DNA of 64,000 nt from a virus (IMGVR_UViG_3300028920_000027:118336-182335), one strand, 5' to 3'. Shown: positions 6,179 through 63,973, counted from the first letter of the stretch. The notes: a model not told the origin generated them from the letters alone. Made by a program: numbers and translations.

Positions 6179-6690
6179 AACGTCGTCTATTCCTCGAACG
6201 AGTCGACACCAAAGAAGTGCACATCGCCCACGTCACGGGTTCGGTGATGGTATGGGAAGAAGGCGACTGGAGACCACTCGGCAGTGGGGTGTCGAGGTTA
6301 GACACCACAGGTACTTATATTATCGCGCCCTTGGTCGAGATTCTTCCCCTCAAGCCCAGCTTGCGGGAAGCTCGGAAGTGGGAAGGGTATAACGACAAAT
6401 GGCACGGCCTTCGCGCCCGCGCCGCGCTCTGGGACCAACAGAGGTATGACTACGTGACCTCCTGCATGGGCCTCTTGGCTCAGTCGTGGAACTTCGTCCT
6501 CTCTTGGAACCGCAAGCTCCCTCAAAGCATCGCTCTGGTTGCCATCCAACATGACGTCGTGGATTACCAAGACCCGGGGCACGCACCGAACTGGGTCGAG
6601 ATGCTGCGGGATGAGTTCGCGAGGCAATCGAAGACCGTTCAGCCCCACCAGCTTTCCTTCTGGGAACGTATCGGCAAGGGCGAGTTCTGA
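6175..6690 (+). CDS. Hypothetical protein with C-terminal SFWERI tag
   Basis: Start and stop overlap neighbouring genes; ends QLSFWERIGKGEF. Confidence 0.65.
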   Translation: MKRRLFLERVDTKEVHIAHVTGSVMVWEEGDWRPLGSGVSRLDTTGTYIIAPLVEILPLKPSLREARKWEGYNDKWHGLRARAALWDQQRYDYVTSCMGLLAQSWNFVLSWNRKLPQSIALVAIQHDVVDYQDPGHAPNWVEMLRDEFARQSKTVQPHQLSFWERIGKGEF

Positions 6691-8447
6691 TGAACCGGGA
6701 AGCCGTTCGCATCCCACGGGCACACCGGGTTGCCTACTTCGAGAAACAGTTGCGCCTCCACCGCAACCATCCAGAATTCCGGCTCGCCGACGAGCCCTTG
6801 CGCCGCTTGATCGGCTTCTCCTGTACCTGTGGAGGATCCGAGACCTTGATTCAGATCAGCCTTGCCTCCGTCCGCGAGCTGATGCCCCAAGCGTTGCGGG
6901 CCTTCCAGAATGTCCGCAACCAGCACATGAACTACGGGTTGCGGCAAAAGAAGAGGCGAACTCGCGCCGATAAGAAAGCACGGGCCCTCCTATTCAGTCA
7001 CCTCACCAAACAGCAGAAGTGGCACTATCGGGCCCACGGCTGCATCCGCTTCACAGGTGGTGACGGGCACGAGTACGAGATCGAGCTGAACGTCTGCAAC
7101 AACGTCTACAAGCTCGAAGACGGCCATCGAAAGGTACGCTACTGCGTCGTCTTCAAGGGTCATAGAAGACTCCCCCTGTACGACCTGATGCTGGCCCAAA
7201 TGGTCATACTCAAGGTAAACCCCGACTACTTCCACGAGATCGCCATCAAGTCAGAGATCAACGACTACCGTGACGTGGGAGCCCCTCTCCAAGGTCAGCA
7301 GCTAGAAGGTGCCGCCGAAGCCGCCGAGGTGGGTCATGAGGGCGTTGTCATCCGCCGAAACGTGCAAGGGCTGGTTGAGCGCCTTCAGCAACGACTCAAT
7401 GAGTTCGAGCAGCAACGCTACACCCATCCTGAAGCCAACCTCCGCCAGCAACTTCAGGAAGTCGGGTTTGGGCGTCCCGAGATCCTGATGAACGACTTGA
7501 TCTTCAGAAAGGAGCAGGGCAACGATCAGGCGATTGAGTACGACGTTCCCCTGGGCGGGGCCGCCTACTACTTGAACTGGGACGACAGCATTGTGGCCAC
7601 GTGCGGGCCCCGCGTCATGGTGCCGCGCCTCAACCTCGATGACGTCGACTACGCAGTGGCCGTGATTGCCCTCTTGCAAGCCGCTGCGTGCTGCACCTAC
7701 GACCACTACGACCAGGTGTTGGACCACTTCCGACAGTATGATCTCCAGTTTGCCCAGGTCCTCTTTCACCCGGATGACGAGCCCGTGTTCGTCGAGTGGA
7801 TCGCGGGCGCTCGCTGGGTCCCCTACCTGACCACGGACGAGCGGGTCCCTCGGGGCAAAGCCCTTTGCCTGACCAACGCAGAGTTCCTGGGCATCATCAC
7901 CCATTGGCATGCAAACGATGGCGAACCGGCAGGGATTGGGTTCTGCGTTCTTAACAACCGGGGCGTCGTCAAGCTTAGACTTCCCCCAGATGAGGATGAC
8001 CGTGAAGACATTGATGAGGTTCAAGTGGGCCCCAGACGACCAGAGGGATGTGGTCCAGGTCCGAAAGATCTTTCAACACCACCGCTTTCAGGGCCGGAAG
8101 ATCTTCAAGGTCGGAGAGGACGGAGAGATGGGAGACCCGATGGAGGTCTTCGATCCGAGCGAGGGGAGGATGGTCGTGTCGGAGCGGATGACGTCGTTCG
8201 AGAGGATCCGGGAGAGCTCGGAGAGCTCGGAGAGCCCGGAGAGTACCTCAGGAGATGGCTCTCCTCCGAACGGCGCCGAGGTACCCAGCACCGGCAAGAA
8301 GTCAATCTCGAAGGCACCGACCTCAAAGGCCTCACGGAAGACCAGCTCCGGGACCGCCTCGCGGAAACGTACCTCGAAGAAGGCCCCGAAGAAGGCGGGC
8401 ACCAAAAAGGCCCCCACCAAGCGCGGTTTTCGGCAGACGGGCAATGA
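6690..8447 (+). CDS. Multidomain hypothetical protein; the part after ~7990 is probably out-of-frame read-through
   Basis: N-half contains ARALLFSHL..YEIE..NVYKL..YCVV..LPLYDLMLAQ. After ~7990 this frame is low-information while another frame is protein-like. Confidence 0.55.
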   Translation: MNREAVRIPRAHRVAYFEKQLRLHRNHPEFRLADEPLRRLIGFSCTCGGSETLIQISLASVRELMPQALRAFQNVRNQHMNYGLRQKKRRTRADKKARALLFSHLTKQQKWHYRAHGCIRFTGGDGHEYEIELNVCNNVYKLEDGHRKVRYCVVFKGHRRLPLYDLMLAQMVILKVNPDYFHEIAIKSEINDYRDVGAPLQGQQLEGAAEAAEVGHEGVVIRRNVQGLVERLQQRLNEFEQQRYTHPEANLRQQLQEVGFGRPEILMNDLIFRKEQGNDQAIEYDVPLGGAAYYLNWDDSIVATCGPRVMVPRLNLDDVDYAVAVIALLQAAACCTYDHYDQVLDHFRQYDLQFAQVLFHPDDEPVFVEWIAGARWVPYLTTDERVPRGKALCLTNAEFLGIITHWHANDGEPAGIGFCVLNNRGVVKLRLPPDEDDREDIDEVQVGPRRPEGCGPGPKDLSTPPLSGPEDLQGRRGRRDGRPDGGLRSERGEDGRVGADDVVREDPGELGELGEPGEYLRRWLSSERRRGTQHRQEVNLEGTDLKGLTEDQLRDRLAETYLEEGPEEGGHQKGPHQARFSADGQ

Positions 8448-8538
8448 TGCCCTGGGCAGTCAGACCAAGCCCAAGGCGGCCTCGAAGCGGGCACCTGTCA
8501 AGAAGACCACCCGGGTTCGCAAGACGACCCGCAAATGA
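7990..8538 (+). CDS. Hypothetical protein: paralog of the 8564 protein plus a Lys/Ala/Thr/Ser-rich histone-H1-like tail
   Basis: RFKWAPDD..F..G.KIFKV..GDPMEVFDPSEG aligns with KYSWDPSD..F..GYRPFAL..GEQMTEFNASAG; tail KKAPKKAGTKKAPTK. Confidence 0.6.
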   Translation: MRMTVKTLMRFKWAPDDQRDVVQVRKIFQHHRFQGRKIFKVGEDGEMGDPMEVFDPSEGRMVVSERMTSFERIRESSESSESPESTSGDGSPPNGAEVPSTGKKSISKAPTSKASRKTSSGTASRKRTSKKAPKKAGTKKAPTKRGFRQTGNDALGSQTKPKAASKRAPVKKTTRVRKTTRK

Positions 8539-8563
8539 CCCCAAAATCGGAAAGGAATGAAGG

Positions 8564-10317: not shown

Positions 10318-10329
10318 ACCCGAAACAAC

Positions 10330-11140
10330 ATGAACACCATCGTCATCGGCGACATTCACGGCTGTCTGGACGAGTTTCAAGCACTCGTGGAGAAGGTCGC
10401 CCTCAAGCCCGAGGACCATGTGATCTGCCTGGGCGATTTCATGGACAAGGGGCCGGACCCTGCCGGTTGTGTGCGGTTCGCGCGTACGCATGGGTTCCAG
10501 TCTGTCCAAGGCAACCACGAGGACAAGCACCTCCGCTGGCGGCGTCACGAAGCCCGCAGGATCCTGGATCCCTCCTACACAACCCCATGACGTTGGATGT
10601 TGCCAAACAGCAAGACAATACCGCTCTGAGCGGCGACGACATCGACTGGCTCAGTAACCTGCCCCCATCGTCGAGGCTGATGGTTGGGTGGCCGTCCACG
10701 GCGGCTTTCTACCAGGCAAGACCCCACGGGAACAGGCCGCTGACCGCAAGATCCGCTCGACCATCGTACGCGTGAGGTGGCTCACCCCCGAAGGCGAGCA
10801 CTGGGCCGAGTTATGGGACCAGCATTTCAACGTGGTCTACGGCCACGAGGCACACAGCCTCAGCCGCCCCTACGACGTCCAAGCCCCCAGCGGCGCCCGG
10901 ACCGTGGGTATCGACACGGGCTGTGTCCACGGGGGCCACCTGACCGCCTTCGTGGTTGAAAACGACGGGGCCACCCACTTCGTCCAGGTGCCGGCGGCCA
11001 AGTGCTACCACCGACACCACGGGCTACGGGCTAGACGCTCCCACAGGGTGGGGGGCGGGAAGGGTGGCACCCCCACGGGAGTGTGGGGTTGCGGGGTAGA
11101 CGTAGGTTGCAGGCATCACAGGTTGTCGAGCGAAACATAG
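10330..11140 (+). pseudogene. Metallophosphoesterase (ApaH/PrpA-like) split by two frameshifts
   Basis: IGDIHG, LGDFMDKGP and GNHE in frame 1; WLSNLP in frame 2; AVHGG, VYGH and GIDTGCVHGGHLTA in frame 3. Shifts near 10580 and 10665. Confidence 0.85.
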
Positions 11141-15662: not shown

Positions 15663-16001
15663 TTAGCCCTCTGACAGGCGTTCCCACGCCGTTTTGACTG
15701 GGCCCGGGACTTCGGCCTGCTCCGGGGTCTGCACGGCCTCCAGAAGGGTGTGGCCGGCCTTTTGGACCCTCTCTCGCTTAGATCGTTCCTCCTGGACTTC
15801 TCGCTCAGCGCGCTGAGCCCTTCTCTGGCACGCTTGAAATTCGCGATTCAGGTCGTGCCCCACCTTTCGCAGACGTTCGATTTCGTTGCGGGACCACCTC
15901 AGCTCTTCCTGCTTGTGTATCTTCGTTTGGCGGTACCACCGGTACTGGAGCGCCAGGACAACGGCGATGGTAGTGGCACAGGTGACTTCGAGAATAGACA
16001 C
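15663..16001 (-). CDS. TM plus coiled-coil protein with C-terminal TAWERL tag (paralog of 16749-17060)
   Basis: Hydrophobic N-terminus, QY.W motif; ends KTAWERLSEG. Confidence 0.7.
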   Translation of the reverse strand: MSILEVTCATTIAVVLALQYRWYRQTKIHKQEELRWSRNEIERLRKVGHDLNREFQACQRRAQRAEREVQEERSKRERVQKAGHTLLEAVQTPEQAEVPGPVKTAWERLSEG

Positions 16002-16748: not shown

Positions 16749-17060
16749 CTAGCCTTTCCGCAACCGCTCCCACGCGGTCAAACGGACGGACTCGAGAGCC
16801 TTCTTCGGCGGGGGCTCGGGCCCTTCGGGAACCTCTGGTCGATTCGCCAGCTCCTGCTCGAGACAAGTCCTGAGCTCGGCGTACTGGATGCCCATGGATT
16901 GCAGGCTCGTGCGCAACTGAGCCTCGTTCTTCTTCAGTGCTGTGATCTCTGAACGGAGGCGGCCCCGCTCCTCTTGCCGCTTGAGGCACCAGCAGTACTG
17001 GATACTGATGATGAGCAGCTCGGCGATGACCACGGCTGTGAGGAGTTGGGTCAAGGTCAT
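16749..17060 (-). CDS. TM plus coiled-coil protein with C-terminal TAWERL tag
   Basis: GGAG RBS upstream; ends LTAWERLRKG. Confidence 0.7.
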   Translation of the reverse strand: MTLTQLLTAVVIAELLIISIQYCWCLKRQEERGRLRSEITALKKNEAQLRTSLQSMGIQYAELRTCLEQELANRPEVPEGPEPPPKKALESVRLTAWERLRKG

Positions 17061-18500: not shown

Positions 18501-18842
18501 TTGACCATCCGTTTTGGCCCCAACCTTGTCTACCCCAGCGACCGCCAGGGGGGTCGGTACCAAGAGTTTCAAGGGACCGCTATTGAGGTCGATGAGTGGG
18601 AACCTCACGAGCCCGGAAGCCGGATTGCCAAAAGAGCCGTTCGAGTTGTAGTCAAAATCCCCGGCGAAGAGCAGACATACGCCGGGTATACCGAGGCCCC
18701 ACCTCCAGTTGGTGCGACCGTGACCATTCGGGTCTATGACTGCGGTGGGGGCTGGTACCCCGATAGTCGTATCCAAGGGTGGTCATCACCCCGGCCACGA
18801 AAGACCTTTTGGGAACGTTTGAATGGTGCACAAAGTTTCTGA
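18501..18842 (+). CDS. Hypothetical protein with C-terminal TFWERL tag
   Basis: Ends RKTFWERLNGAQSF. Confidence 0.65.
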   Translation: MTIRFGPNLVYPSDRQGGRYQEFQGTAIEVDEWEPHEPGSRIAKRAVRVVVKIPGEEQTYAGYTEAPPPVGATVTIRVYDCGGGWYPDSRIQGWSSPRPRKTFWERLNGAQSF

Positions 18843-32315: not shown

Positions 32316-32527
32316 AATACCAACTTCATGAGAAGTGCCCCGCCTGTGAACGAACGCGTACGGACTCCGGCGTGTCCGTTGCTGAAACCGTGGCCATGCA
32401 CAACCCCGACACCACGGACCTGAACGCCCGCGCCACGCTCCGGTGCCGCGCCTGCGGGCACACGTGGGAAGGTCACACCACGAGCCCATATACCCAGAGA
32501 ATGCGCCGACGAGGGAGAATCCGATGA
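32312..32527 (+). CDS. Small Zn-ribbon protein
   Basis: CPAC..CRACG. Confidence 0.6.
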   Translation: MKYQLHEKCPACERTRTDSGVSVAETVAMHNPDTTDLNARATLRCRACGHTWEGHTTSPYTQRMRRRGRIR

Positions 32528-43429: not shown

Positions 43430-43438
43430 AGTAAGGAA

Positions 43439-43927
43439 ATGCTCACGTTTTTACCTCCAAAATGGCGTATCATCGACATGGGAAACCGACGGCAGGTTCG
43501 GGTAACCGAGTTGCTCGACCGACTCATGTCCAGGTACGGAGAGGCCTTCGTGGCGGACGCCTTCAGTGCAGCCGTCGAAGGTCGCTTGCTGGAGAGGCTC
43601 AGGTCACGCTTCGGCGAGTCAACGTCAGAGCCTCGAATCGCAACCCTGCTGGACTACCCTCGACGGCTTCTCTACACAGAGGAGAAGGGCCGTGTCGACT
43701 GGGAAAACCAGACTTTCCCCGGGGAGGATCACTCTGACGTCCGCGAAAAAGATGGCGAACGCACGTTCACAACCGAGCCCTACGGCATTAGCTGGGAGAA
43801 TTTGGCTGGGATGGTCGACTACTGTCGGAAAAATGGCCTTCAAGCCGACGTGTCCACAGGGTCGCCGCACAACGCTACCAGTTGTGTCCTGGTCACCGTG
43901 CGCCGGGCTTCAAAGGAAACGCCGTGA
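43439..43927 (+). CDS. Hypothetical protein
   Basis: ATG lies 6 nt after GGTG-TAAAGT. Confidence 0.6.
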   Translation: MLTFLPPKWRIIDMGNRRQVRVTELLDRLMSRYGEAFVADAFSAAVEGRLLERLRSRFGESTSEPRIATLLDYPRRLLYTEEKGRVDWENQTFPGEDHSDVREKDGERTFTTEPYGISWENLAGMVDYCRKNGLQADVSTGSPHNATSCVLVTVRRASKETP

Positions 43928-44978: not shown

Positions 44979-45269
44979 GTGGCCACATGGGAAGGTCTGG
45001 TCACTAGTCGCGAACAGCGCCGCCAAGGCTTCTGCATCATGCCAACGCCACCCTGCGACGACCACGCCGCCATCCTGGCCTACCTAGGCACCATCCCCGA
45101 GCTCGAAGCAGACGCCATCACGCTGTACGTCCAGAACGGCATGGAGCCGGAGAACATCGCTGCCGTCATCGGGACCGACTTCGCGACCGCGCGCCGGGAC
45201 CGAGAAGTCCAACAGCTCGCCCAGGACGCACGCCGCCCGTCCCTCTGGGAACGGCTCAGCCGCTTGTAG
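44979..45269 (+). CDS. Hypothetical protein with C-terminal PSLWERL tag (start uncertain)
   Basis: Ends RRPSLWERLSRL. Confidence 0.55.
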   Translation: MATWEGLVTSREQRRQGFCIMPTPPCDDHAAILAYLGTIPELEADAITLYVQNGMEPENIAAVIGTDFATARRDREVQQLAQDARRPSLWERLSRL

Positions 45270-53929: not shown

Positions 53930-54352
53930 GTGGCTTCGAAGCGTGAGGCATTGAGTGTGAAGGCATCGGGGCCTGTGGTGTTGTTGTTGCGAGCGATGGC
54001 GCGGCGGTACTCGTGGGTGACGCTGCACAAGCTGACGTTGGTGTGTATTCGTTTGGGGCTGAGGGCACTCGACCAGCGCCCGCATTTGCTGGAGAAGGAG
54101 CTACGGGCGATGCAGGTGGAGAGGCAAGAGCATGACCCACGGAAGGGTAAGAAGAAGCGTGCAGTACGGCGGAAGGCAGCGGGGCCACCTCGGAAGGCCA
54201 AGCCGAAGCCGCCGGGGCCGGTAGCGCAGGGAGCGATACCGCCAGCGCCGAGGTTGAGAGAGGTATTGACGCCTGAGCTATTGGCGAGCGTGATGTCGGG
54301 TGTTTTGGGGAAGGGCAGTATCGAAGTAGACCTGAAGGAGCCAGATGACTGA
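53930..54352 (+). CDS. Basic hypothetical protein (possible DNA binder)
   Basis: GTG lies 5 nt after GGTG-TAGAGT. Confidence 0.55.
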   Translation: MASKREALSVKASGPVVLLLRAMARRYSWVTLHKLTLVCIRLGLRALDQRPHLLEKELRAMQVERQEHDPRKGKKKRAVRRKAAGPPRKAKPKPPGPVAQGAIPPAPRLREVLTPELLASVMSGVLGKGSIEVDLKEPDD

Positions 54353-54710
54353 GGGCTTCAGCTACACGGCGAGTTGGAGCATATCGGCATCGGAGTTGGT
54401 GGGGGCATCGAGGCTCGACCTGGTGGGTGCTGTTGAGCGGCAGTTGGAGGAGCAGCTAGCGAGGCATTGGGACCGGGTGGTAGCGGGGCTACTGGGCGAG
54501 GCGCCACTGGTACAGAAGCCAGCGATACCGCCATGGCGTCCACTGACCCCCTACTGGGCGCGGGTAGCGAACGTGGAGGCGCGAGGGGAGAGCGTGACGT
54601 CGTTGGATGAGCTATTGCCCGGAGCATCTCAGGCAGCTCGGGTATCGAGGAGCTGGGGCTGGACGCCACGGCCACTGACCTTGTGGGAGCGGCTTGATGA
54701 CAATGGCTGA
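54345..54710 (+). CDS. Hypothetical protein with TLWERL tag
   Basis: Ends PLTLWERLDDNG. Confidence 0.65.
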   Translation: MTEGFSYTASWSISASELVGASRLDLVGAVERQLEEQLARHWDRVVAGLLGEAPLVQKPAIPPWRPLTPYWARVANVEARGESVTSLDELLPGASQAARVSRSWGWTPRPLTLWERLDDNG

Positions 54711-54751: not shown

Positions 54752-54955
54752 ATGAAGAAGCACCCTAGGATGAGCGAACACGTGGAAGGCCTACAGCCCT
54801 CCAGGACCGTCGAGCTGACCTGTGCCCAGTGCGCGTGGTCTGCCTGGTTCGATCCCCTAGCTCCCGAGGTCATGGCAGCCGTGGAGGGCGTTGTGCACAT
54901 CTGCACAACGTGTCGGGGCCGTGCTCTTCCCACAGAGAAAGCCTCATGCCCCTGA
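54752..54955 (+). CDS. Small Zn-finger protein
   Basis: CAQC..CTTC. Confidence 0.55.
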   Translation: MKKHPRMSEHVEGLQPSRTVELTCAQCAWSAWFDPLAPEVMAAVEGVVHICTTCRGRALPTEKASCP

Positions 54956-55917
54956 CCGGTGAACAGCGCGCTGAGTTACGACGGCTCGGGTGGACGGACC
55001 AGCAGCTCGGCAGTGCCGACAACCTGGGCCTGACCTTCGCGACACTCCGGGACGCCGAGGCCCATGAGCCAAGCTCCGTGGGGCGAACGCTCCAGGCATT
55101 GGGTCCGCCAGGCTCCGTTCAAGGCGTCCAGGTCGATCCTTCGGACCCGACCTTCGATGTCATCGAGCAGGTCCGGCAGATGACGGGGCACGGCATCACA
55201 TTCGCTCGCCAGGCGGTTCCAGAGCACCTTCCGTTTGACCTTTCAGGCGAGGCGGACCACTTCCAGGCCCTTACGCAAGCCGCCTTGAACGTTCCCCCTG
55301 AGTGGCAAGCCGCCAGTGGCCAGGTCTACCCTACCGTGGCAGAAGCCAACCAAGCCAACCATGCGTTTTTGGAAGCAGATATTCAGGGCTTCACGCGCCT
55401 GTGCCGCGATCCCGGGAACCAACGACGACCACATTCGCTCGACGAGCGGTTGCAGAGCACCTCACCTTCCCGTCCCGAGAATTGGGCCGAGGCCCTGCGT
55501 GCCTTGGGTGAGATGGGCTCGAACCCTGACATCCCGACCTGGAGGCAGCGTTTTGGTCTCAGCGATGAGGACGCGACAGTGTTACAAGTCGAGCACGCTA
55601 TGCAAGCGGTCACAACCCATGACATCACTATCGACCGTGAGTTCGTCGAGCGGTTGCAGCGCGACATTGCCTTTCATGCTCAATTCGAGCTCTTTTATGG
55701 CGCCTCACCCCGCGGTCGCCAGCAGTTTGGGGTCGAGTACCAGGGGGTGTTCGTCGACGAGGCCGCTAACTTCCCCGAGGTCTTCGTTCCCACCGAAGAG
55801 GAGATCAAGCAGATGTATGCCGACGACGCTCGTCGGGGACTGAGCGAGGACCAGCAGAAGATTCGGGACCGTCGGCCTACCCTGTGGGAACGGCTCAGGG
55901 AGGGCGGCGAACCATGA
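54946..55917 (+). CDS. Hypothetical protein with PTLWERL tag
   Basis: Ends RPTLWERLREGGEP. Confidence 0.7.
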   Translation: MPLTGEQRAELRRLGWTDQQLGSADNLGLTFATLRDAEAHEPSSVGRTLQALGPPGSVQGVQVDPSDPTFDVIEQVRQMTGHGITFARQAVPEHLPFDLSGEADHFQALTQAALNVPPEWQAASGQVYPTVAEANQANHAFLEADIQGFTRLCRDPGNQRRPHSLDERLQSTSPSRPENWAEALRALGEMGSNPDIPTWRQRFGLSDEDATVLQVEHAMQAVTTHDITIDREFVERLQRDIAFHAQFELFYGASPRGRQQFGVEYQGVFVDEAANFPEVFVPTEEEIKQMYADDARRGLSEDQQKIRDRRPTLWERLREGGEP

Positions 55918-56546: not shown

Positions 56547-56732
56547 GTGGATCCACGCCTGGATTTGCTACGACAGCTCGGTCACTACGAGAAGCTACCA
56601 CCCGTAGGGTTTGTCATCGAGCGGTTGTGTTCCTCTGAGCTTTGCCATCGAGAAGCATCAAGAAGAGCCCCCCTGCCATGGGTAGACGGCCGACCCTGGT
56701 GGGAACGTTTCAGGGAGGCCGCCCGTGAGTGA
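56547..56732 (+). CDS. Small hypothetical protein with variant tag PWWERF
   Basis: Ends GRPWWERFREAARE. Confidence 0.45.
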   Translation: MDPRLDLLRQLGHYEKLPPVGFVIERLCSSELCHREASRRAPLPWVDGRPWWERFREAARE

Positions 56733-57240
56733 CCGCGTCATTGCCAAGGTCATTCCTGGCAAGCGGCCTCCCTTGAGCGTGGGAGACGCTTGCCTCACGT
56801 CGTGGCGCCAGTGGGTGCCTCAGCTGGGGTCCAGCCCCAGCCTCTCTATGTGGACGCCATGCCAAGGGCGGCTGCCCGTCACCGATCTGGGCAGGTTCAA
56901 CCATCCTCAGGCTCTGCTGGAAGACCTGAATCGTGGCTTGGACGACAAGGCTCAAGCTTGCCAACAGCGAGAGTTTCGGGACCATCAACTGAGCGACGAG
57001 CAGCGATGTGGGGCTCGGATTCTGGACATCATCATCATCAATGCCTTGAAGACTCTTTACAAGGGTTCGATACTCCTGGTCCATTTCCAGCTAACCTTCT
57101 CCGTGCGGTTTGCCATCGAGAGCGTTCCTGACTCGACCGTTGGGTTGATCTGTCCCCGCATCTTCGCCGAGACCGTGACTACATGGCATCCCGAGGGTAA
57201 GGTGGCCCCGACCCTGTGGGAGCGACTGGGTGATGGCTGA
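56725..57240 (+). CDS. Hypothetical protein with PTLWERL tag
   Basis: Ends APTLWERLGDG. Confidence 0.7.
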   Translation: MSDRVIAKVIPGKRPPLSVGDACLTSWRQWVPQLGSSPSLSMWTPCQGRLPVTDLGRFNHPQALLEDLNRGLDDKAQACQQREFRDHQLSDEQRCGARILDIIIINALKTLYKGSILLVHFQLTFSVRFAIESVPDSTVGLICPRIFAETVTTWHPEGKVAPTLWERLGDG

Positions 57241-57688
57241 CCCTATCAGTGGCTGGTACCGGGCCAAGCGCTCGTTCACGATGGATACACACGACGGCCC
57301 ATCTGAGGTCGAGAGTGGAGATCGGCTTTTCTATGTGGGTGCCGGCCGCGTTCAGGTCAAGGACGGGAAGATTTGTGAGGTGGTGGACGGCACGAACCTC
57401 TTCGAAGTAGTCTACGAGGTGGGGTGGGTCAAGCTGCTCGCCGCCGCGAAGACTCCTGAGCCCCTGAAGTTGAAACGGGGCTGGTACGTGGTGGTTCGGT
57501 CGTTCACGCACCAGAAGAGCGACATCTCGGTAGACAATGACGCCTTCATCTTCTTTGACGGCGGGCGCGGTCAGCTTGGGCAAGGTCGGTATCTGGAAGC
57601 CGACATCCTTCAGCACATGCTCAAGGTCGGGTGGATTGCCCCTGCCCAAGGGGCCCCGACCCTATGGGAGCGGCTTGATGTCGAGTAG
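57233..57688 (+). CDS. Hypothetical protein with PTLWERL tag
   Basis: Ends APTLWERLDVE. Confidence 0.7.
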   Translation: MADPISGWYRAKRSFTMDTHDGPSEVESGDRLFYVGAGRVQVKDGKICEVVDGTNLFEVVYEVGWVKLLAAAKTPEPLKLKRGWYVVVRSFTHQKSDISVDNDAFIFFDGGRGQLGQGRYLEADILQHMLKVGWIAPAQGAPTLWERLDVE

Positions 57689-57730
57689 TCATTGCGGGCC
57701 GCCACCGGGCCCAACGGTGTAAAGTGGCTC

Positions 57731-58366
57731 GTGCGCTTCGACCACATTCGCTTTCTGTGGGTTGATCACCCGGACCGCCTGACCCCGACGTCCGGCCGTT
57801 CCTGGAGCCTCATCTTCACGGGGGGTAGCCCTCTCGACACGTCGGCGCCCTACCACCATCGCGGTTACCTTTGGGGCGAGACAAAACACGGCAAGGCGCG
57901 GGTGCACAACTGGCGGGCGCTGGGGTACCACGAGGTCCAAGACCACTTGGTTCGCTTGGCGCACCACGCGCCTGCCGATGCCATGGAGCGCATGAGTGCC
58001 TACAAGGAAACAGAGGTCCTTGACTCGGTGGGTGTCGTTCGGATCGCGGCTCAGTGGACTCTCGACTACTACATGGCCAATGAGGTCTTCCCCACGAACG
58101 AGGAGCATGAGCGGTCTGGGCCGTTTCCACCAGACTCGTGGCTCTGGATTCGTTGCTACAAGCCGCCCCTGACCGCGGATGACCTGACCAATGAGAGTCG
58201 GAGGGAGAATGGCAGCCCCATCGTGTTCCAGGCGAGCATCACCGTGATGGGGCGGGATCCTCAGGAAGGTGACCGCGAGCTGCCAGCTTTCTTCTGCCAG
58301 ACCCACGCGATGCACAATCGAATGGGATCGGCGGCGCCTCAGCCAACCCTGTGGGAGAGACTATGA
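57731..58366 (+). CDS. Hypothetical protein with PTLWERL tag
   Basis: GTG lies 5 nt after GGTG-TAAAGT; ends QPTLWERL. Confidence 0.7.
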   Translation: MRFDHIRFLWVDHPDRLTPTSGRSWSLIFTGGSPLDTSAPYHHRGYLWGETKHGKARVHNWRALGYHEVQDHLVRLAHHAPADAMERMSAYKETEVLDSVGVVRIAAQWTLDYYMANEVFPTNEEHERSGPFPPDSWLWIRCYKPPLTADDLTNESRRENGSPIVFQASITVMGRDPQEGDRELPAFFCQTHAMHNRMGSAAPQPTLWERL

Positions 58367-58953
58367 CAGCGCCAATTCAAGAACGAGTTTGGTTCGAGCA
58401 GTTGCCCGATCTAGCTGAGCCTGTGTATGCGTTTGACGCGAACACAGAGATCGTCCGGTTGGGTCTGGGTAGTGACCCCTACGCGCACCTGGAGCCTCGG
58501 GTGTGGACCTTTCAAACGGACAGATTCGATGCCCCAGGCCAGATTTCCCTCACGAAGATCAAGATCCCGGTAGTGAACTCTGCCTTGGGATTCTTGCTTC
58601 AGTTCACTCACGATAAAGCCCAAGACCCTTGTGTCGTGAGCCAACGGTTGAGGGCGACGCGACCTCCCATTCTCAAGGCGGCGGCGGCCCGGCTCGCTCT
58701 CGACCAGCTCGTAACAGACGCTATCAAGTGGTACAGTCAGGAGGATTCTGACTCTCTTTTGTGGATCGTCCACCGACCGCCTAATCAAGCTGGGACGTCG
58801 ATGGTCTGCTTTACGATGTTGAAAAATCTTGCAGAGGGTGTGGGAAATACCACTTCTCCTCCCGAGAAGTGGGGCCTCACTCGCGATCTGTTGATCTCCC
58901 TGGGAGATCGCTCCCCGCCTCAGGCCCCCGTGGGAACGGTTGGGGATGATTAA
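58363..58953 (+). CDS. Hypothetical protein (WERL codons present out of frame at the 3' end)
   Basis: ATGA overlap with the previous gene. Confidence 0.6.
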   Translation: MTAPIQERVWFEQLPDLAEPVYAFDANTEIVRLGLGSDPYAHLEPRVWTFQTDRFDAPGQISLTKIKIPVVNSALGFLLQFTHDKAQDPCVVSQRLRATRPPILKAAAARLALDQLVTDAIKWYSQEDSDSLLWIVHRPPNQAGTSMVCFTMLKNLAEGVGNTTSPPEKWGLTRDLLISLGDRSPPQAPVGTVGDD

Positions 58954-58991
58954 CGGACGATTTCCTGAACGGAATCCGTATGGGGTACATC

Positions 58992-59165
58992 ATGGCTGAC
59001 TCACCGCATGACAATTATAACTCGTTTGATCCGCTAAAGTGGGTCTTTGGTCCCTTTGCGGTATTTGGGTGTGGTTTCTTGGCTGTTTGGGTGATCTCTG
59101 CCCTTGCATCCTTGGCCCTCATCGGAGCGGCCATCTATCTGATCTATTCCACAGCAACACTGTGA
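58992..59165 (+). CDS. Small membrane protein
   Basis: Long hydrophobic stretch. Confidence 0.55.
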   Translation: MADSPHDNYNSFDPLKWVFGPFAVFGCGFLAVWVISALASLALIGAAIYLIYSTATL

Positions 59166-59220: not shown

Positions 59221-59598
59221 ATGAAAAGCATCCCCATGGGCATCGAAGGCCGCCACATTCATCTCAGCGACTACGCTCAGCAGCCCGAGGTTCGCATCGC
59301 CTGCACCCAGCGTTACAGCAGCCCCTGGAACCAGCCCAAGGACCTACCTCCGGGCGTCCACCAGCTCGACGAGGACCTCTACACGTTCGACGAGGATTTG
59401 GTGACTTGCCCCGAGTGCAAGGCCATGCCTGTCTGGGTCAAAGGGTATACCCGCAAGCGGCGCTTCGAGGCACAGCTCCAGCTCTGGGGGCTGACGGGGG
59501 GCGAGTACGTGGCCGCCACGAGGGCAGACCCCTTCCTCACGAAGTTCTCCCGAGCTTCGGATGAGGAACTCGACCGCATCTGGAAGGGTGAGACATGA
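59221..59598 (+). CDS. Hypothetical protein
   Basis: CPEC motif. Confidence 0.6.
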   Translation: MKSIPMGIEGRHIHLSDYAQQPEVRIACTQRYSSPWNQPKDLPPGVHQLDEDLYTFDEDLVTCPECKAMPVWVKGYTRKRRFEAQLQLWGLTGGEYVAATRADPFLTKFSRASDEELDRIWKGET

Positions 59599-60218
59599 TA
59601 GTCGATACCATCTGCGAGACCTACGCCCGCTTCGAGGAAGTTCCCTTCGACAAGCCCATTGGGGTGACTCTGCCCGACGAGGCCAAGGCTTTGGTTGCTG
59701 AGGTCAACCCCTGGGCGGTGCCCGTTCCCGAACGGTTGAGGTGGGCCAACCTGATGCCTGGGATCTGGGACGTCAGCATCCGTTGGCCACGGTTGGTTTT
59801 CCCTCATTATGCGGAAGAGCACATCGAAAAGATACTAGCCTGCTGTACACATGACCAACAGCAGGCAGCACGAAACCTGATCGCCAGTGCCGCGAGTCAT
59901 GACGATGAGGGCGTCTGGGCACTCAACCGACGCGCGGCAGGACTCTACGCTGATGCCCTCATTGCGCACATCCTTGCTGAGCGCCCCCGGATGTTCCCTG
60001 ACAGCTACCTGTGGGTTCGGTGGCAGTCCGGGCGCAAGGAAGATATCGAAGATGAGCCGGTGCTGAGCGTGTTCATTCTCAGCACAGAGTGGGAGCCTCC
60101 TGCGGGTCGTCGCCTCCCCAAGGAGGAAGTCGACAGCATGACCACCTATACCCTGATGAACCGGTGGCATCTTCAGGTCAAGGGTCCAACCCTGTGGGAG
60201 CGCCTGGCTCGTGACTGA
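59595..60218 (+). CDS. Hypothetical protein with PTLWERL tag
   Basis: Ends GPTLWERLARD. Confidence 0.7.
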   Translation: MIVDTICETYARFEEVPFDKPIGVTLPDEAKALVAEVNPWAVPVPERLRWANLMPGIWDVSIRWPRLVFPHYAEEHIEKILACCTHDQQQAARNLIASAASHDDEGVWALNRRAAGLYADALIAHILAERPRMFPDSYLWVRWQSGRKEDIEDEPVLSVFILSTEWEPPAGRRLPKEEVDSMTTYTLMNRWHLQVKGPTLWERLARD

Positions 60219-60861
60219 CTCTCCCTTTACCATCCGCTTCATCGAGATGGGCTCAACTCTGGAGGTTCATTCCAGCATGGGGGAGGTTCAGGCACTGGTC
60301 CTCCCCCATGACGCTGATATCTACGAGAAGCCAGTGCCTCGACTCGGATGGCGTCCCTTACCCTCTTGGGTAGTGCATGTGAGTGACACCTTGAACATCC
60401 CTAACCGGTCTGTGCCCGAGTCGACCGCGTATTTGAAGGAGGTGTGTTCCAGGGTGCGTCCTGTAGGTGGGTCCACCGAGGACGTGCGCCGCATGTTCAT
60501 CGACAGACTCGGTCAAGACCGGCCCCACGTTATCGTCGACATTGCATCGGCGTTCCATACCGACAACATCGTCGCCAACATTCTGCGTGGGGCGTACTCC
60601 CCTCCAGCCGAGAAGGTGACCATCGGCTTCAAGCACACCGACCGGCCCCACCTCGTCGTGTTGGCCGCCCGCAAGCATTTCTGGGAGCCTCAGAAGGTCC
60701 ACAACAAGCCCTGGGGCGACATCCCGCCCGAGGAGTGGCCCCAAGTCCGGGCAGTTCTCCGTGGCCTCCACCAGGGCGCGTGGTTTCGACCCTCTCCGAC
60801 CTTGTGGGAGCGACTTGCGCTGAACGATTCGGCAAGTCCATCCGTATGTGGACGCCAGTGA
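60211..60861 (+). CDS. Hypothetical protein with PTLWERL tag
   Basis: PSPTLWERLALND near the C-terminus. Confidence 0.7.
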   Translation: MTDSPFTIRFIEMGSTLEVHSSMGEVQALVLPHDADIYEKPVPRLGWRPLPSWVVHVSDTLNIPNRSVPESTAYLKEVCSRVRPVGGSTEDVRRMFIDRLGQDRPHVIVDIASAFHTDNIVANILRGAYSPPAEKVTIGFKHTDRPHLVVLAARKHFWEPQKVHNKPWGDIPPEEWPQVRAVLRGLHQGAWFRPSPTLWERLALNDSASPSVCGRQ

Positions 60862-60981
60862 TGATTCGTGCCCTGAAAGCGTTCGCTAAAGAGGGTGGCA
60901 GGCTCAGAGTGAGCGGTCCACGCCCGAGTGGGCCGTGACGGCGTTGGCTGCGGGCTGGACACCACCCAAGGGTTGGAAGCC

Positions 60982-61536
60982 GTGAAGCTCAAGGTCCGCT
61001 TCGAGGAAGTGCCTTCAAGGGGCCTGCCTATCTGTCGGTTAGACCCCTCTTGGTGCTTACATTTCCAGGGCGGTGACCCTTATGACGGGCCAGGTGAGTA
61101 CTCTTGGACACCAATGGCCCCTAAGGCGGGTCTCATCATGACCGCTTTCCGGCGAAAAAGTCTCGAGGAGGCCCGGGAGTGGCTTCAGAAGTGGGATCTC
61201 TGTGTCGAGCACGTGGACACCACCCAGCACATGGACTCCCCCCAGTTGGTGGACCGGGTGGCACAGTTCGCGATCGACCGGTTCGTTTGCATGCTCCTGC
61301 GTCCCTTGAATGACTTCTATTGGTACCGTGTTGTCTACCAGTACGGGTATGTCGCTGGAGAGGTAGCGCGGATTGCGGTCGTTCAGAGCCATGCTGAACC
61401 CCGAGGATGCTCCCTGGAGCCCCCGCCTTTATGGTGGGCCACGGGGCGCATGCTCAAGCATCGGGGCGTTCAGAAATGGCCCACAATTTGGGAGAGGGTG
61501 GCAAACGTCGGTGTAGAGTTTGACGACGATGCCTGA
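60982..61536 (+). CDS. Hypothetical protein with PTIWERV tag
   Basis: Ends WPTIWERVANVGVEFDDDA. Confidence 0.65.
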   Translation: MKLKVRFEEVPSRGLPICRLDPSWCLHFQGGDPYDGPGEYSWTPMAPKAGLIMTAFRRKSLEEAREWLQKWDLCVEHVDTTQHMDSPQLVDRVAQFAIDRFVCMLLRPLNDFYWYRVVYQYGYVAGEVARIAVVQSHAEPRGCSLEPPPLWWATGRMLKHRGVQKWPTIWERVANVGVEFDDDA

Positions 61537-61759
61537 ACCAATTGACCCTTACCGTTTCGTTGTCGGAATCGACTTCGGCCACCACGGCGACGAGACCGCG
61601 CTGGTGACCCTAAATCAGTACACCGGACGGGTGGCAAACTCTGAGCTGACCGTGCTCAAGCAACGACAAGTTCCCGCGGACCGCATCAAGTTGAGTTGGG
61701 GAATGGGCGACCTGGTGGAGCCCCCCACGCTGTTCGAGCGCCTGATGCTGGAGGAGTGA
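61529..61759 (+). CDS. Small protein with PTLFERL tag; N-terminus resembles an RNase H-fold strand (VVGIDFG..DETA)
   Basis: Ends PPTLFERLMLEE. Confidence 0.6.
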   Translation: MPEPIDPYRFVVGIDFGHHGDETALVTLNQYTGRVANSELTVLKQRQVPADRIKLSWGMGDLVEPPTLFERLMLEE

Positions 61760-62844
61760 TGACGGTCAAGTTCTTTGGGACACCGGTCGTTGACCTGGGG
61801 GAGGTGTGGTTTGTCTCCACCGACAACAGCATTGGCTTCCGCCTCACTGCTTTCGACGGGGGCATGATTTTGAAGACCATTCAGCCCAATTGGTCTCCCC
61901 GTGCCGTTCAGAACATGGGTCTGCTGGACCCCGTCAAGCGAGATTTCGGCGAGTTGGAGCGACCCGTTGAACCCAACGAGACGGTTGCTGAGGTCCGCGA
62001 GGACCTCAGTCTACAAGAACGAACTCTGCTTCTGGAGTATGTACTCCTTCAAAATCACCCCGAGCTAGCCCATCGATTCTCCCAGCAGCCCCATTTTGGT
62101 GGCTGGAAGGTCTTCCCCGACATGGCCGTCGAGTACGAAGGTGGGTGTGTGTGGTTCCGTTGTGGTGAAGGAATGCTCTACTACTACACTATCCACAATG
62201 AAAGGGTCATGGTCGACCAGTCGACCAGGTTTCTGACCTTGAGAGAGTGTGTGGGCAGTGCGCACATGCTCATGCAGCAGAGTCGTAAGGCTGAGATGGA
62301 AGCCATTCACGAGTACTCGACAGTCCGCCTGGACCCTGTCCGTACTGAGTTCGCGTGTGGCGCCGTGCGGGTGACGGCTTCGGGGAACGCCAATTGGGAA
62401 ATAACGTGCCGGGGGGCTCGTTACCTGGTGGTGCCGCGGGTGGTTCAGCGGCTGTACGCGGTGCTTGGGTCCGAATATCCGCTGATGTACGGCTTCACCC
62501 CCGAGGACGCGGTGAAGCGCTTCCTCGGGGCCAACCCGGAGTTGAGGGAAGAGTACACCTTTTTTGGGCGTGCAATTCCCCTCAATGGAGAGCTTGACCT
62601 AGGGGACGGTTATCGAGTCGTGATTGCGGAGGCTCGGGCATGGCTGATGCACCACGACACCGAGCTGATGCAGGTAATGTCGACAACCAACCAGAAAGCT
62701 CTTCAGAAGCTGGAAAAGGCTGCCGCCACGATACGATCTAACCTAACATCGTGGCGGGAGTTCGACTACAAGATCCAACGCTTTGGCATGGGACGCATGA
62801 CGGGTTTTCAACGCCTGCGCTTTGAGGATGAGTTCGATGATTGA
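61759..62844 (+). CDS. Hypothetical protein with variant tag TGFQRL
   Basis: Ends MTGFQRLRFEDEFDD. Confidence 0.65.
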   Translation: MTVKFFGTPVVDLGEVWFVSTDNSIGFRLTAFDGGMILKTIQPNWSPRAVQNMGLLDPVKRDFGELERPVEPNETVAEVREDLSLQERTLLLEYVLLQNHPELAHRFSQQPHFGGWKVFPDMAVEYEGGCVWFRCGEGMLYYYTIHNERVMVDQSTRFLTLRECVGSAHMLMQQSRKAEMEAIHEYSTVRLDPVRTEFACGAVRVTASGNANWEITCRGARYLVVPRVVQRLYAVLGSEYPLMYGFTPEDAVKRFLGANPELREEYTFFGRAIPLNGELDLGDGYRVVIAEARAWLMHHDTELMQVMSTTNQKALQKLEKAAATIRSNLTSWREFDYKIQRFGMGRMTGFQRLRFEDEFDD

Positions 62845-63067
62845 GAAGGTGGTGTACTTCCCGGACCCGGACGGCGTGGGTGATGGCGTGACGCTGCGGT
62901 TTACCCCTGAGGGCTACCAAAACCTGCGGGACTTCTGCGATAAAGTTGTTCCTCAAGACCAGCTTTGCAGGCGGTTCGCCTCCGCGCTCCGAGCCGTTGC
63001 CGATGCCGCCGATGCTCCGCCCCCCAATGCTTGGGAGATCCTGCGCGATGCCGCCGATGAGGGCTGA
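62837..63067 (+). CDS. Small hypothetical protein with variant tag NAWEIL
   Basis: Ends PPPNAWEILRDAADEG. Confidence 0.55.
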   Translation: MIEKVVYFPDPDGVGDGVTLRFTPEGYQNLRDFCDKVVPQDQLCRRFASALRAVADAADAPPPNAWEILRDAADEG

Positions 63068-63280
63068 GTCAAGAGTCGCTACCGAGCAACTCGATGAGTT
63101 GGCCCATCAGCTGGGCCCCCCACTCCAGCATTTGGCAGACAGGATGAAGCAGTTTGGGCAGGCCCTCACCCAGTTCTCGCTCGCTCTTGAGGAACATGTG
63201 GCACCTGCAAGCATGCCCTGGGCAGCCACGATCGGCCGCAGTCCATTGTCTTCCACCTTGTCTCTGCCAAGGAGCTGTAC

Positions 63281-63973
63281 TTGCACCTGAGGATCAACTG
63301 GTGGGGCAAGGATGGGCCGGCTGTAGCGTTGGTGCTGTATCGTTCGATACGGCCGTGCATCGAGAATGAGATCGCCGACCAAGGGGACCGTCGTAGTATT
63401 ATCGTTGAGTCTCACCTTCCCGACCACTTCGACGAAGAGTTCAAGAATGTCGAGCACGTAGCGAGTCACACCGATGTGGCTCTTCGCTTGTTGGAGAACT
63501 CAGTCCTCTCCCTCTGGCCCCAGCTGGCTCACGATCTGGAGCAGTCGCTCGCGCCCCGTCGTGTTGGGGCACCGGCCTTGGAACCCTGCTTCGGGTGGCT
63601 CATTGACCCGACCCACCGCCTCGGCGACACCACTAATAGGACCCTAGCCTTCAATGAGCTCAACAAGCATTCAGAGACCGCGGTGGCCTACTTTCTCCAG
63701 GACAGCGTGCTGATCTCCCCCATAGAGAGGTTCCCCCTCCCGGTGACGCTGAGTTACGACGTCTACTGGTTCGAATACGATGGTAAGGCTTTCTTGATTC
63801 GAGCCAGTAAGCGAAGGAAGGTGTACAGCATCATCCATTTGACGGACCTACCTGACGGGGCCTACCACGTGGTCTGGGGGTTCACTCCTATCGATGCCAT
63901 GGAGCGTTTCATGGATTCCCGAAGGAACCGGGCCATCCCCGAGACCATTTGGGAGCGCCTGAGTGATGACTAG
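63281..63973 (+). CDS. Hypothetical protein with TIWERL tag (may begin at 63057 via a frameshift)
   Basis: Ends PETIWERLSDD. Confidence 0.6.
   Translation: MHLRINWWGKDGPAVALVLYRSIRPCIENEIADQGDRRSIIVESHLPDHFDEEFKNVEHVASHTDVALRLLENSVLSLWPQLAHDLEQSLAPRRVGAPALEPCFGWLIDPTHRLGDTTNRTLAFNELNKHSETAVAYFLQDSVLISPIERFPLPVTLSYDVYWFEYDGKAFLIRASKRRKVYSIIHLTDLPDGAYHVVWGFTPIDAMERFMDSRRNRAIPETIWERLSDD

What the first reader, a model, noticed from the sequence alone, without database searches (positions are those of the whole stretch)
6655..63973. A shared C-terminal peptide tag, [ST]-x-[WF]-E-R-[LIV] plus a short tail, on at least 16 mostly unrelated proteins
Seen within about 20 aa of the stop codon in the genes starting at 6175 (SFWERI), 16001- and 17060- (TAWERL), 18501 (TFWERL), 32524, 54345, 54946, 56725, 57233, 57731, 59595, 60211 (TLWERL), 44979 (SLWERL), 60982 (TIWERV), 61529 (TLFERL) and 63281 (TIWERL). 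Variants occur at 56547, 61759 and 62837; internal copies at about 8191 (TSFERI) and about 11410- (PTLFERL). It is often preceded by Pro and followed by DEE, SDD, LEE or FDD. Apart from one paralog pair, the carriers share no other visible homology (soluble, membrane and Zn-binding types). All six Arg codons, both Glu codons and several Leu codons are used, so selection acts on the peptide and not on a DNA or RNA site. I know no described function for this motif. Inference: a phage-wide address label, such as a docking motif for a common hub, a signal for virion packaging/ejection or compartment import, or a degron or modification site.
Basis: partly seen in the sequence, partly recalled or inferred. 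Interest (0 to 1): 0.93.

Follow-up and report, generated by a model that had tools for sequence, protein, structure and literature searches.

The report
Shared C-terminal docking tag, huge phages
About one in twelve genes of this fragment of an uncultured giant phage, and up to one in eight in its relatives, encode small unrelated proteins that end in the same short peptide; the peptide changes in step on all carriers between phage lineages, so one undescribed partner probably reads it, and the phages' own ClpX unfoldase is the best candidate.

Summary
In the window, 16 ORFs end in [ST]-x-[WF]-E-R-[LIV] plus 0-14 residues, and about 5 end in variants. Three or four further carriers lie upstream in the same 182-kb record. 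Shuffling predicts 0.03 carriers. Codons vary freely at synonymous sites, so selection acts on the peptide.

The tag is not private to this phage. The record is a 38%-complete fragment of a clade of 0.2-0.5 Mb uncultured phages whose capsid protein resembles that of phage G. Every relative I read has the tag in its own flavour:
- TxWERL/TxWDRI
- TAWxRL
- [TN]LWDHL
- P[ST]RF[DE]R[DE]EVL

Carrier numbers range from 4 to 62 per genome. One core protein family keeps the tag everywhere, always in the host genome's flavour. This concerted change points to a single co-evolving reader.

The carriers are ORFans. The tag follows a Pro-rich linker and precedes an acidic tail.

My best candidate (about 35%) is the clade's own ClpX. 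It has a zinc-finger N-domain and a ClpP-docking loop but no RKH loop, and it sits in conserved synteny with the core client. A complex prediction gave no verdict.

I found no description of the motif in the literature. The scan has seen analogous tags with other sequences in other phages.

The parts
6175..6690 (+). carrier, 171 aa, tag SFWERI at 6655-6672, tail GKGEF
   Evidence: no Pfam
15663..16001 (-). carrier, 112 aa, tag TAWERL at 15692-15675, tail SEG; weak paralogue of the next
16749..17060 (-). carrier, 103 aa, tag TAWERL at 16778-16761, tail RKG
18501..18842 (+). carrier, 113 aa, tag TFWERL at 18804-18821, tail NGAQSF
32443..32943 (+). carrier, up to 166 aa (start uncertain), tag PTLWERL at 32914-32931, tail DEE
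43927..44865 (+). variant carrier, 312 aa, STWELL at 44833-44850, tail ALTS
44979..45269 (+). carrier, 76-96 aa, tag PSLWERL at 45240-45257, tail SRL; weak sigma-70 region 4 hit below cut-off
54345..54710 (+). carrier, 121 aa, tag LTLWERL at 54678-54695, tail DDNG
54946..55917 (+). carrier, 323 aa, tag PTLWERL at 55879-55896, tail REGGEP; no homologue among 5.8 billion proteins
56547..56732 (+). variant carrier, 61 aa, PWWERF + REAARE
56725..57240 (+). carrier, 171 aa, tag PTLWERL at 57211-57228, tail GDG
57233..57688 (+). carrier, 151 aa, tag PTLWERL at 57659-57676, tail DVE
57692..58366 (+). carrier, 224 aa, tag PTLWERL at 58346-58363, no tail (tag is the C-terminus)
59595..60218 (+). carrier, 207 aa, tag PTLWERL at 60189-60206, tail ARD
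60211..60861 (+). carrier, 216 aa, tag PTLWERL at 60799-60816, 14-aa tail
60928..61536 (+). carrier, 202 aa, tag PTIWERV at 61483-61500, tail ANVGVEFDDDA (acidic with Phe)
61529..61759 (+). carrier, 76 aa, tag PTLFERL at 61727-61744, tail MLEE
61759..62844 (+). variant carrier, 361 aa, TGFQRL + RFEDEFDD
62837..63067 (+). variant carrier, 76 aa, PNAWEIL at 63026-63043, tail RDAADEG
63281..63973 (+). carrier, 230 aa, tag ETIWERL at 63944-63961, tail SDD
58925..58999 (+). out-of-frame tag copy (RPPWERL + 18 aa) overlapping the 3' end of gene 58363-58953; likely a carrier that lost its tag through a frameshift, or an assembly indel
11005..11073 (-). orphan tag copy (PPTLWERL + 8 aa) with only 22 in-frame codons upstream; probable remnant of a carrier

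Best explanation
The peptide [ST]-x-[WF]-E-R-[LIV] is a short linear docking motif. It is displayed at the end of a flexible, Pro-rich C-terminal linker and is usually followed by a few acidic residues. It belongs to a tag system shared by a whole clade of phage-G-like huge phages. General form: [TSN]-x-aromatic-[DE]-[RH]-[LI].

One partner reads the tag on all carriers of a genome and co-evolves with it. This part is shown indirectly, and I give it about 0.75.

The most likely partner is the clade's own ClpX unfoldase. I infer that its N-terminal zinc-binding domain holds the tag much as E. coli ClpX holds the C-terminal XB peptide of SspB or the C-terminal core of FtsZ. On this reading the tagged ORFans are either substrates whose lifetime the phage sets through ClpX plus host ClpP, or small adaptors that bring what they bind to that protease. 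This part is inferred and no binding is shown; I give it about 0.35.

The window's own record is a fragment and does not contain the ClpX gene.
For: Tag reality and peptide-level selection:
- p = 8e-16, 0.026 carriers expected, and free synonymous codon use.

Clade-wide presence:
- The closest complete relative, G005 (portal 73% identical), has about 32 carriers.
- G020 has about 40 and G026 about 34, with [TN]LWDHL.
- G011 has about 8, with TA[WF]xRL.
- G019 has 62 of 499 genes, with P[ST]RF[DE]R[DE]EVL.
- G039 and G032 have 4-8.

Concerted evolution:
- A core 160-180-aa family ends in the tag in every genome, in that genome's flavour: TAFDRI, SRFTRE, TAYGRL, NL[YF][DS]HL.
- The match includes G019's private Arg at position 2 and Glu at position 6.
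- 100 of 143 full-length representatives of this family end in [TSN]x[YFW]x[RHQK][LIVMF] plus an acidic tail.

Carrier properties:
- Carriers turn over fast. Only 35 of 209 have any cross-genome homologue, and a 323-aa window carrier is a singleton among 5.8e9 proteins.
- Context fits a linear motif. Pro makes up 16% of the 12 residues before the tag against 5.5% background, and Asp+Glu make up 31% after it against 14%.

ClpX:
- It is a core gene with a C4 zinc finger, GYVG and an [IVLM]-G-F ClpP-docking loop. The RKH loop that reads ssrA is absent.
- ClpX and the core client co-occur in 15-16 of 38 relatives, always 5-9 kb apart. Both are missing from the complete genomes G033 and G034.
- G019, the genome with most tags, also encodes ClpP.

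Precedent:
- The ClpX N-domain binds short C-terminal peptides of SspB and FtsZ (PMC3983244).
- Five degron classes are known for ClpX (PMC12723719).
Against: - No binding, degradation or expression datum exists for this system.
- The ClpX link rests on plausibility, core status and synteny inside a long block of core genes. Many other core genes share the same phyletic pattern.
- The tag does not resemble any known ClpX signal (LAA-COOH, RRKKAI, or the XB peptide LRVVK).
- The tag does not need a free C-terminus, since tails range from 0 to 16 residues.
- ClpX is not on the 182-kb record that holds the window. CheckV rates that record 38% complete, so the gene's presence in this phage is inferred from relatives.
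- Co-evolution could equally involve a host protein, because the lineages differ in G+C (44-65%) and presumably in host.
Confidence: 0.38

Rival explanations
1. The tag docks on a different hub. This could be another phage core protein: the J-domain protein, the Cdc48-like AAA+ ATPase, the GroEL homologue or an RNA-polymerase-associated factor. It could also be a conserved host protein. The carriers would then be brought to that hub for folding, remodelling, transcription control or inhibition of the host.
For: - The clade core also encodes a J-domain protein, a Cdc48/VCP-like AAA+ protein and a Cpn60.
- The core client has an N-terminal Tudor/KOW-like barrel. Its best structural neighbours are RNA-polymerase-binding domains of CarD and UvrD/PcrA, but only at Z 6-7.
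- Lineage-specific tag flavours would also follow from different hosts (G+C 44-65%).
Against: - None of these proteins is known to read C-terminal linear motifs the way Clp N-domains do.
- Structural matches at Z 6-7 are in the range of common folds.
- There is no phyletic or synteny signal that singles out any of them.
Confidence: 0.3
2. The tag is a virion-loading signal. It would bind the inside of the capsid shell, the scaffold or the portal, so that dozens of small proteins are packed and injected with the DNA.
For: - Huge capsids carry many internal proteins.
- Encapsulin cargo and P22 scaffold use C-terminal peptides to bind HK97-fold shells (established knowledge).
- Two tagged proteins are paralogues of the major capsid protein: G000 110953-112074 and G019 42960-43859.
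Against: - Carriers lie in co-directional ORFan arrays far from the head module. No head-module protein carries the tag.
- The capsid protein is 88-93% identical across the clade while the tag changes from WERL to WDHL to RFDR. A shell pocket that conserved would be expected to hold the tag constant.
- The core client sits in the replication/ClpX block.
Confidence: 0.1
3. The tag is a cleavage site for the phage's papain-like cysteine protease, with the aromatic residue in P2 and the acidic residue in P1. Cleavage would trim the last few residues.
For: - A Peptidase_C1 homologue is encoded in this record (113058-113888 -) and in 18 of 38 relatives, including 7 of 8 complete ones.
- Papain-family enzymes prefer a bulky hydrophobic P2 (established knowledge).
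Against: - Cleavage would remove only 3-10 residues, with no obvious purpose.
- One carrier ends exactly with the tag.
- In G001 and G022 the core client has Leu or Ile in place of the aromatic residue.
- The protease match is weak in G020 and G039, which still have tags.
Confidence: 0.07
4. The conserved element acts at the nucleic-acid or ribosome level. It would be a promoter, a recombination linker, or a nascent peptide that modulates termination or coupling. The shared peptide would then be a by-product.
For: - The tag lies just upstream of stop codons, and many stops overlap the next start.
- In this genome the tail length peaks at 3 residues.
Against: - Third codon positions vary freely, and all six Arg codons occur.
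- Substitutions between lineages are conservative at the protein level (W/F/Y, D/E, R/H, L/I) and need several base changes.
- Tail length ranges from 0 to 16 and differs between lineages.
- Carriers are on both strands and always in frame with long ORFs.
Confidence: 0.03

Closest known systems
SspB XB peptide and the FtsZ C-terminal core, both docking on the ClpX N-terminal zinc-binding domain (PMC3983244)
   Same: A short peptide at the end of a flexible C-terminal linker, on proteins with unrelated bodies, read by one unfoldase domain. The core client has the SspB-like layout of a folded body, a ~25-residue basic/Pro-rich linker and a terminal peptide. A ClpX with an intact C4 zinc finger is encoded by the clade.
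   Different: The sequence is unrelated to LRVVK. It is carried by 4-62 proteins per genome instead of a few adaptors. No binding is shown.
ClpX C-terminal degrons (ssrA-type C-motif 1, MuA-type C-motif 2; Flynn et al. 2003 as cited in PMC12723719)
   Same: C-terminal peptide signals shared by otherwise unrelated proteins and read by ClpX.
   Different: Known degrons need the free C-terminus (LAA-COOH) or are basic. Here the motif sits 0-16 residues from the end and is followed by acidic residues.
Clamp-binding C-terminal peptides of phage T4 (gp43, gp33, gp55 on gp45) and PIP boxes
   Same: Short hydrophobic/aromatic C-terminal peptides on several different proteins that bind one ring-shaped hub. 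The clade has a clamp loader.
   Different: No polymerase, ligase or other replication enzyme of these phages carries the tag. The residue order differs. The number of carriers is far larger, and they are ORFans.
Acidic C-terminal tails of SSB, T7 gp2.5/gp4 and T4 gp32
   Same: An acidic run, often with a Phe, follows the motif in the core client and in several carriers.
   Different: In this window most tails are only 3 residues long and lack an aromatic tip. The conserved part is the T-x-W-E-R-L helix-like core, not the acid run.
Other shared terminal tags found by this scan in uncultured large phages (e1-5347349, e1-5659569, e1-5684931, e1-831089)
   Same: One case also tags copies of the phage's own capsid protein. 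One has the same skeleton, [TN]-x-W-x-x-[VIL].
   Different: The sequences and phage clades are different. None of these cases was tested at the bench, and I did not re-examine them.

Membership tests
SspB-type ClpX tether (XB-like peptide) | Short peptide at the C-terminal end of a flexible linker | tested here: met
   Pro makes up 16% of the 12 residues before the tag against 5.5% background, and hydrophobic residues are depleted. The core client has a ~25-residue basic/Pro-rich linker before the tag.
SspB-type ClpX tether (XB-like peptide) | A ClpX with an N-terminal C4 zinc-binding domain is available | tested here: met
   A core ClpX is present in G005, G011, G019, G020, G026, G032, G039 and others, with CxxC...CxxC, GYVG and an [IVLM]GF loop. 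It is not on the window's own 38%-complete record.
SspB-type ClpX tether (XB-like peptide) | Sequence resembles the XB consensus (L-R-V-V-K) | tested here: not met
   The tag is [TSN]-x-[WFY]-[DE]-[RH]-[LI].
SspB-type ClpX tether (XB-like peptide) | Direct binding to the ClpX N-domain | not testable with these tools
   This needs a binding assay.
ClpX C-motif 1 / C-motif 2 degrons | The signal includes the free C-terminus (LAA-COOH) or a basic C-terminal run | tested here: not met
   Tails after the motif are 0-16 residues long, variable and mostly acidic.
Clamp-binding peptides (T4 gp45 clients, PIP box, beta-clamp motif) | Present on the replicative polymerase and other replication enzymes | tested here: not met
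   No protein of 230 aa or more with a replication domain ends in the tag in any of 8 genomes. The ligase and RecA tails in G000 lack it.
Clamp-binding peptides (T4 gp45 clients, PIP box, beta-clamp motif) | Consensus Qxx[LIM]xx[FY][FY] or QL[SD]LF | tested here: not met
   There is no Gln, and the residue order differs.
Capsid-targeting / cargo-loading peptides (T4 CTS, encapsulin CLP) | N-terminal position with a protease site (T4), or a C-terminal GSL-type peptide on cargo encoded next to the shell gene (encapsulin) | tested here: not met
   The tag is C-terminal and has no GSL motif. Carriers are far from the head module.
Capsid-targeting / cargo-loading peptides (T4 CTS, encapsulin CLP) | Carriers are found inside particles | not testable with these tools
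   No cultured member has the tag. Phage G, Tunturi_5 and LR745208.1 gave no match.
SSB-type acidic C-terminal tip | An acidic run ending in a hydrophobic or aromatic residue at the very C-terminus | tested here: inconclusive
   This is seen in the core client and some carriers. Most window carriers end in 3 residues without an aromatic.

The most novel reading that the evidence does not exclude
The clade may run a virus-encoded, programmable protein-destruction system. In this reading, a phage ClpX retargets the host's ClpP. A fast-evolving library of dozens of small ORFan proteins each binds a different host or phage target and carries the common C-terminal tether. The ORFans would then act as interchangeable adaptors, a natural PROTAC-like kit. 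The tether and its receptor would drift together between lineages.
Probability: 0.15. Interest if true: 0.92.

Novelty: new variant of a known kind. Interest (0 to 1): 0.8.

Why it matters
Between 5% and 12% of the genes of these huge phages are ORFans with no clue to function. A shared tag that changes in step across lineages gives them a common handle. It implies that one machine acts on all of them, and it turns 'hundreds of unknown genes' into one testable question: what binds the peptide?

It would also offer orthogonal tag-receptor pairs (WERL, WDHL, RFDR) for controlled proteolysis.

The same pattern, with other sequences, recurs in other large phages seen by this scan. It may therefore be a general feature of large-phage biology that has not been described.

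Tried and rejected
- An exact DNA pattern for PTLWERL in IMG/VR gave 11 single chance hits, none in frame near a C-terminus.
- Megablast of the window against GenBank phages gave no match.
- A literature search for WERL/TLWERL and for phage-encoded ClpX found nothing relevant.
- Phyletic profiling for a reader:
  - DUF5662 looked linked in 7 genomes, but it is present in G001 and absent from tag-rich G016 and G022. Rejected.
  - The papain-like protease and PTH2 turned out to be near-core.
  - The approach then collapsed, because every genome I could read has at least a few tags.
- Complex prediction of two ClpX N-domains (residues 1-58) with zinc and a 49-residue TLWERL tail of G005 gave no verdict. 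The score was 0.00 and the controls were not run.
- Fold searches with the core client gave only common SH3/Tudor/KOW-like barrels at Z 6-7 and no SspB-like match.
- No canonical SSB (PF00436) was found in 5 genomes.
- Contigs encoding divergent members of the core client are too short to show ClpX.
- The cultured or named relatives (phage G, Tunturi_5, LR745208.1) show no core client and no W-type tags.
Whether ClpX-less genomes lack tags therefore remains open.
- Covariation between ClpX N-domain residues and tag flavour was not attempted, because there are too few independent switches among the paired genomes.


Full report
**1. The observation**

A six-frame scan of the window finds 26 matches to xx[WFY]ER[LIVM]. 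The same scan of the whole 182,335-bp record adds carriers at 80.8, 85.4, 85.7 and 112.0 kb; the window is the record's last 64 kb.

With my own gene calls (249 genes), the strict pattern occurs 16 times in the last 25 residues and once elsewhere (Fisher p = 8e-16). Residue shuffles give 0.026 carriers on average.

Codon use inside the motif is free. There are four Pro, three Thr, two Glu, six Arg and five Leu codons. Carriers lie on both strands. Selection is therefore on the peptide.

All-against-all BLASTP shows that carriers share only the tag, apart from two weak paralogue pairs. None of 20 window carriers reaches a Pfam threshold. A 323-aa carrier has no homologue among 5.8 billion proteins.

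**2. What the genome is**

The record is an IMG/VR virus contig that CheckV rates 38% complete. Features found in it:
- a portal, a large terminase with an intein-like insert, and a prohead protease
- RecA, an NAD ligase, ribonucleotide reductase and a clamp loader
- a Cpn60, a vWA protein and a J-domain protein
- a type I-C-like Cascade in the window
- a CUA-anticodon tRNA

Its major capsid protein matches gp27 of Bacillus phage G (PDB 6WKK, E = 3e-60). It is 47% identical to that of Tunturiibacter phage Tunturi_5.

The portal finds 58 IMG/VR contigs, most of 0.2-0.53 Mb. The window therefore belongs to a clade of uncultured huge phages.

**3. The tag is clade-wide and drifts in step**

The closest complete relative is G005 (437 kb, portal 73% identical). 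It has about 32 carriers ending in T-x-W-E-R-L or T-x-W-D-R-I.

I ran an unbiased search for gapped k-mers enriched in the last 20 residues. It recovers the tag in each genome without prior knowledge and shows different flavours:

| Genome | Flavour | Carriers |
|---|---|---|
| G020 | [TN]-L-W-D-H-L | about 40 |
| G026 | [TN]-L-W-D-H-L | about 34 |
| G011 | T-A-[WF]-x-R-L | about 8 |
| G019 | P-[ST]-R-F-[DE]-R-[DE]-E-V-L | 62 of 499 genes |
| G039, G032 | [TN]-L-[WFY]-D-H-L plus acidic tail | 4-8 |

A 14-column profile of the W-type tags gives 31 and 39 hits in G005 and G020, and 13-27 hits in G016, G022 and G026. It gives 0-1 hits in genomes with other flavours. A profile of the G019 type hits only G019 and its near-duplicate G018.

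In all genomes the 12 residues before the tag are three-fold enriched in Pro. The residues after it are 31% Asp+Glu. Carriers cluster in co-directional arrays of small ORFans, often near the ends of terminally redundant genomes. Of 103 larger carriers, 97 or more have no Pfam family. Only 35 of 209 have any homologue in another of the eight genomes.

**4. A conserved client shows concerted evolution**

One carrier family is core (alignment A4; G005 46432-46968). It is present in all seven relatives that I read in full, and each copy ends in its own genome's flavour, followed by an acidic run:

| Genome | Tail of the core client |
|---|---|
| G005 | TAFDRI |
| G019 | SRFTRE |
| G011 | TAYGRL |
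| G032 | NLYSHL |
| G039 | NLFDHL |
| G020, G026 | NLYDHL |

The match extends to G019's private Arg at position 2 and Glu at position 6, and to G011's non-acidic position 4.

A profile search of 1.84 billion cluster representatives finds 205 members. Of 143 full-length ones, 100 end in [TSN]-x-[YFW]-x-[RHQK]-[LIVMF] plus an acidic tail, most often T-[AV]-Y-D-[RH]-L-L. In G001 and G022 the aromatic residue is Leu or Ile.

Unrelated proteins in one genome thus change the same positions together. The simplest cause is a single reader that changes with them. This is the main new evidence for the 'address label' reading.

**5.

Phyletic profiling failed. Every genome has at least a few tags, and the early candidates were either mismatched (DUF5662) or near-core (papain-like protease, PTH2).

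Annotating the core block around the conserved client turned up a full-length ClpX (E = 8e-107 to solved ClpX). Its features:
- the C4 zinc finger of the N-domain is present
- Walker motifs are present
- the GYVG pore loop is present
- an [IVLM]-G-F loop is present; this loop docks on ClpP
- the RKH loop is absent; in E. coli this loop reads the ssrA tag (PMC12723719)

ClpX and the core client co-occur in 15-16 of 38 relatives, always 5-9 kb apart. Both are missing from the complete genomes G033 and G034. Only G019, the genome with the most carriers, also encodes ClpP.

In E. coli the ClpX N-domain binds the C-terminal XB peptide of the adaptor SspB. It also binds the conserved C-terminal core of FtsZ, which includes Pro, Ala, Phe and Arg (PMC3983244). 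The core client has the SspB-like layout of body, flexible linker and terminal peptide. Its predicted fold is different, however: a Tudor/KOW-like barrel plus a beta-sandwich (pLDDT 94).

These points make ClpX the best candidate, but they are indirect. Other core genes are not excluded: a J-domain protein, a Cdc48-like AAA+ ATPase and Cpn60. The host is not excluded either.

A clamp-binding reading is weakened because no replication enzyme carries the tag. A capsid-loading reading is weakened by two things. Carriers lie away from the head module, and the capsid protein is near-invariant (88-93% identical) while the tag varies.

**6. Comparison with what is known**

The system works like the known C-terminal docking or degron peptides of Clp unfoldases and like the clamp-binding tails of T4. 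It fails the sequence and positional definitions of each (see the membership rows).

I found no paper that describes the motif or a phage ClpX with its own tag set.

The scan's notebook holds several analogous, unverified cases in other large phages with different peptides. One of them also tags copies of the phage's own capsid protein. I see the same thing here: G000 110953-112074 and G019 42960-43859 are tagged capsid-protein paralogues.

**7. Verdict**

The interpretation as a common label is supported by concerted evolution. The label's reader and purpose remain inferred, with a phage-ClpX tether or degron as the leading hypothesis at about 35%.

Limits:
- gene calls are home-made
- the window's own record lacks the ClpX region
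- ClpX-less genomes could not be read in full
- there is no experimental system, because no cultured relative shows the tag

Noticed in passing
window 58925-58999 (+) and 11005-11073 (-): Two tag copies lie out of frame with the adjoining genes. One is RPPWERL at the 3' end of gene 58363-58953. The other is PPTLWERL with only 22 in-frame codons upstream. They look like carriers that lost the tag by a frameshift, or like assembly indels.
   Followed up: partly
window 1879-1954 (+): ARAGORN calls a tRNA with anticodon CTA (an amber suppressor, labelled Pyl). Five window carriers end in TAG (stops at 16749, 32943, 45269, 57688, 63973), so read-through would extend them past the tag.
   Followed up: no
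G000 110953-112074 (L017:10953-12074:+), outside the window; G019 42960-43859: These are tagged proteins with regions 31-46% identical to the major capsid protein, so they are capsid-protein paralogues carrying the tag. An earlier scan note on another phage clade reports the same kind of tagged copies.
   Followed up: partly
G000 113058-113888 (-) and 117341-117637 (+), just upstream of the window: A papain-family cysteine protease (Peptidase_C1) is found in 18 of 38 relatives. A PTH2-type peptidyl-tRNA hydrolase is found in 6 of the 8 genomes compared. Both are unusual for phages.
   Followed up: partly
L082:707-1993:+ (G005) and orthologues in 16 relatives: A phage-encoded full-length ClpX has a ClpP-docking loop but no RKH loop. 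ClpP itself is encoded only by G019 (274091-274564).
   Followed up: yes
L013:17007-20351:- (terminase) and L014:9107-11881:- (clamp loader): Both proteins match the same PHROG of unknown function (phrog_9666) over ~300-460 residues, in addition to their own family. This suggests intein-like insertions in both.
   Followed up: no
window 7909-8538 (+): The ORF with the 'internal' TSFERI copy overlaps the 585-aa gene 6690-8447 in another frame. Another first-reader note treats it as a paralogue of the Gly-Gly-ended gene at 8564. Which frame is expressed is unclear.
   Followed up: no
G035:C1:208565-209400: There are six exact copies of TGGGAACGTTT at 96-411-bp spacing on one strand of a relative. 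This is a repeat array of unknown nature, seen only in the pattern scan.
   Followed up: no
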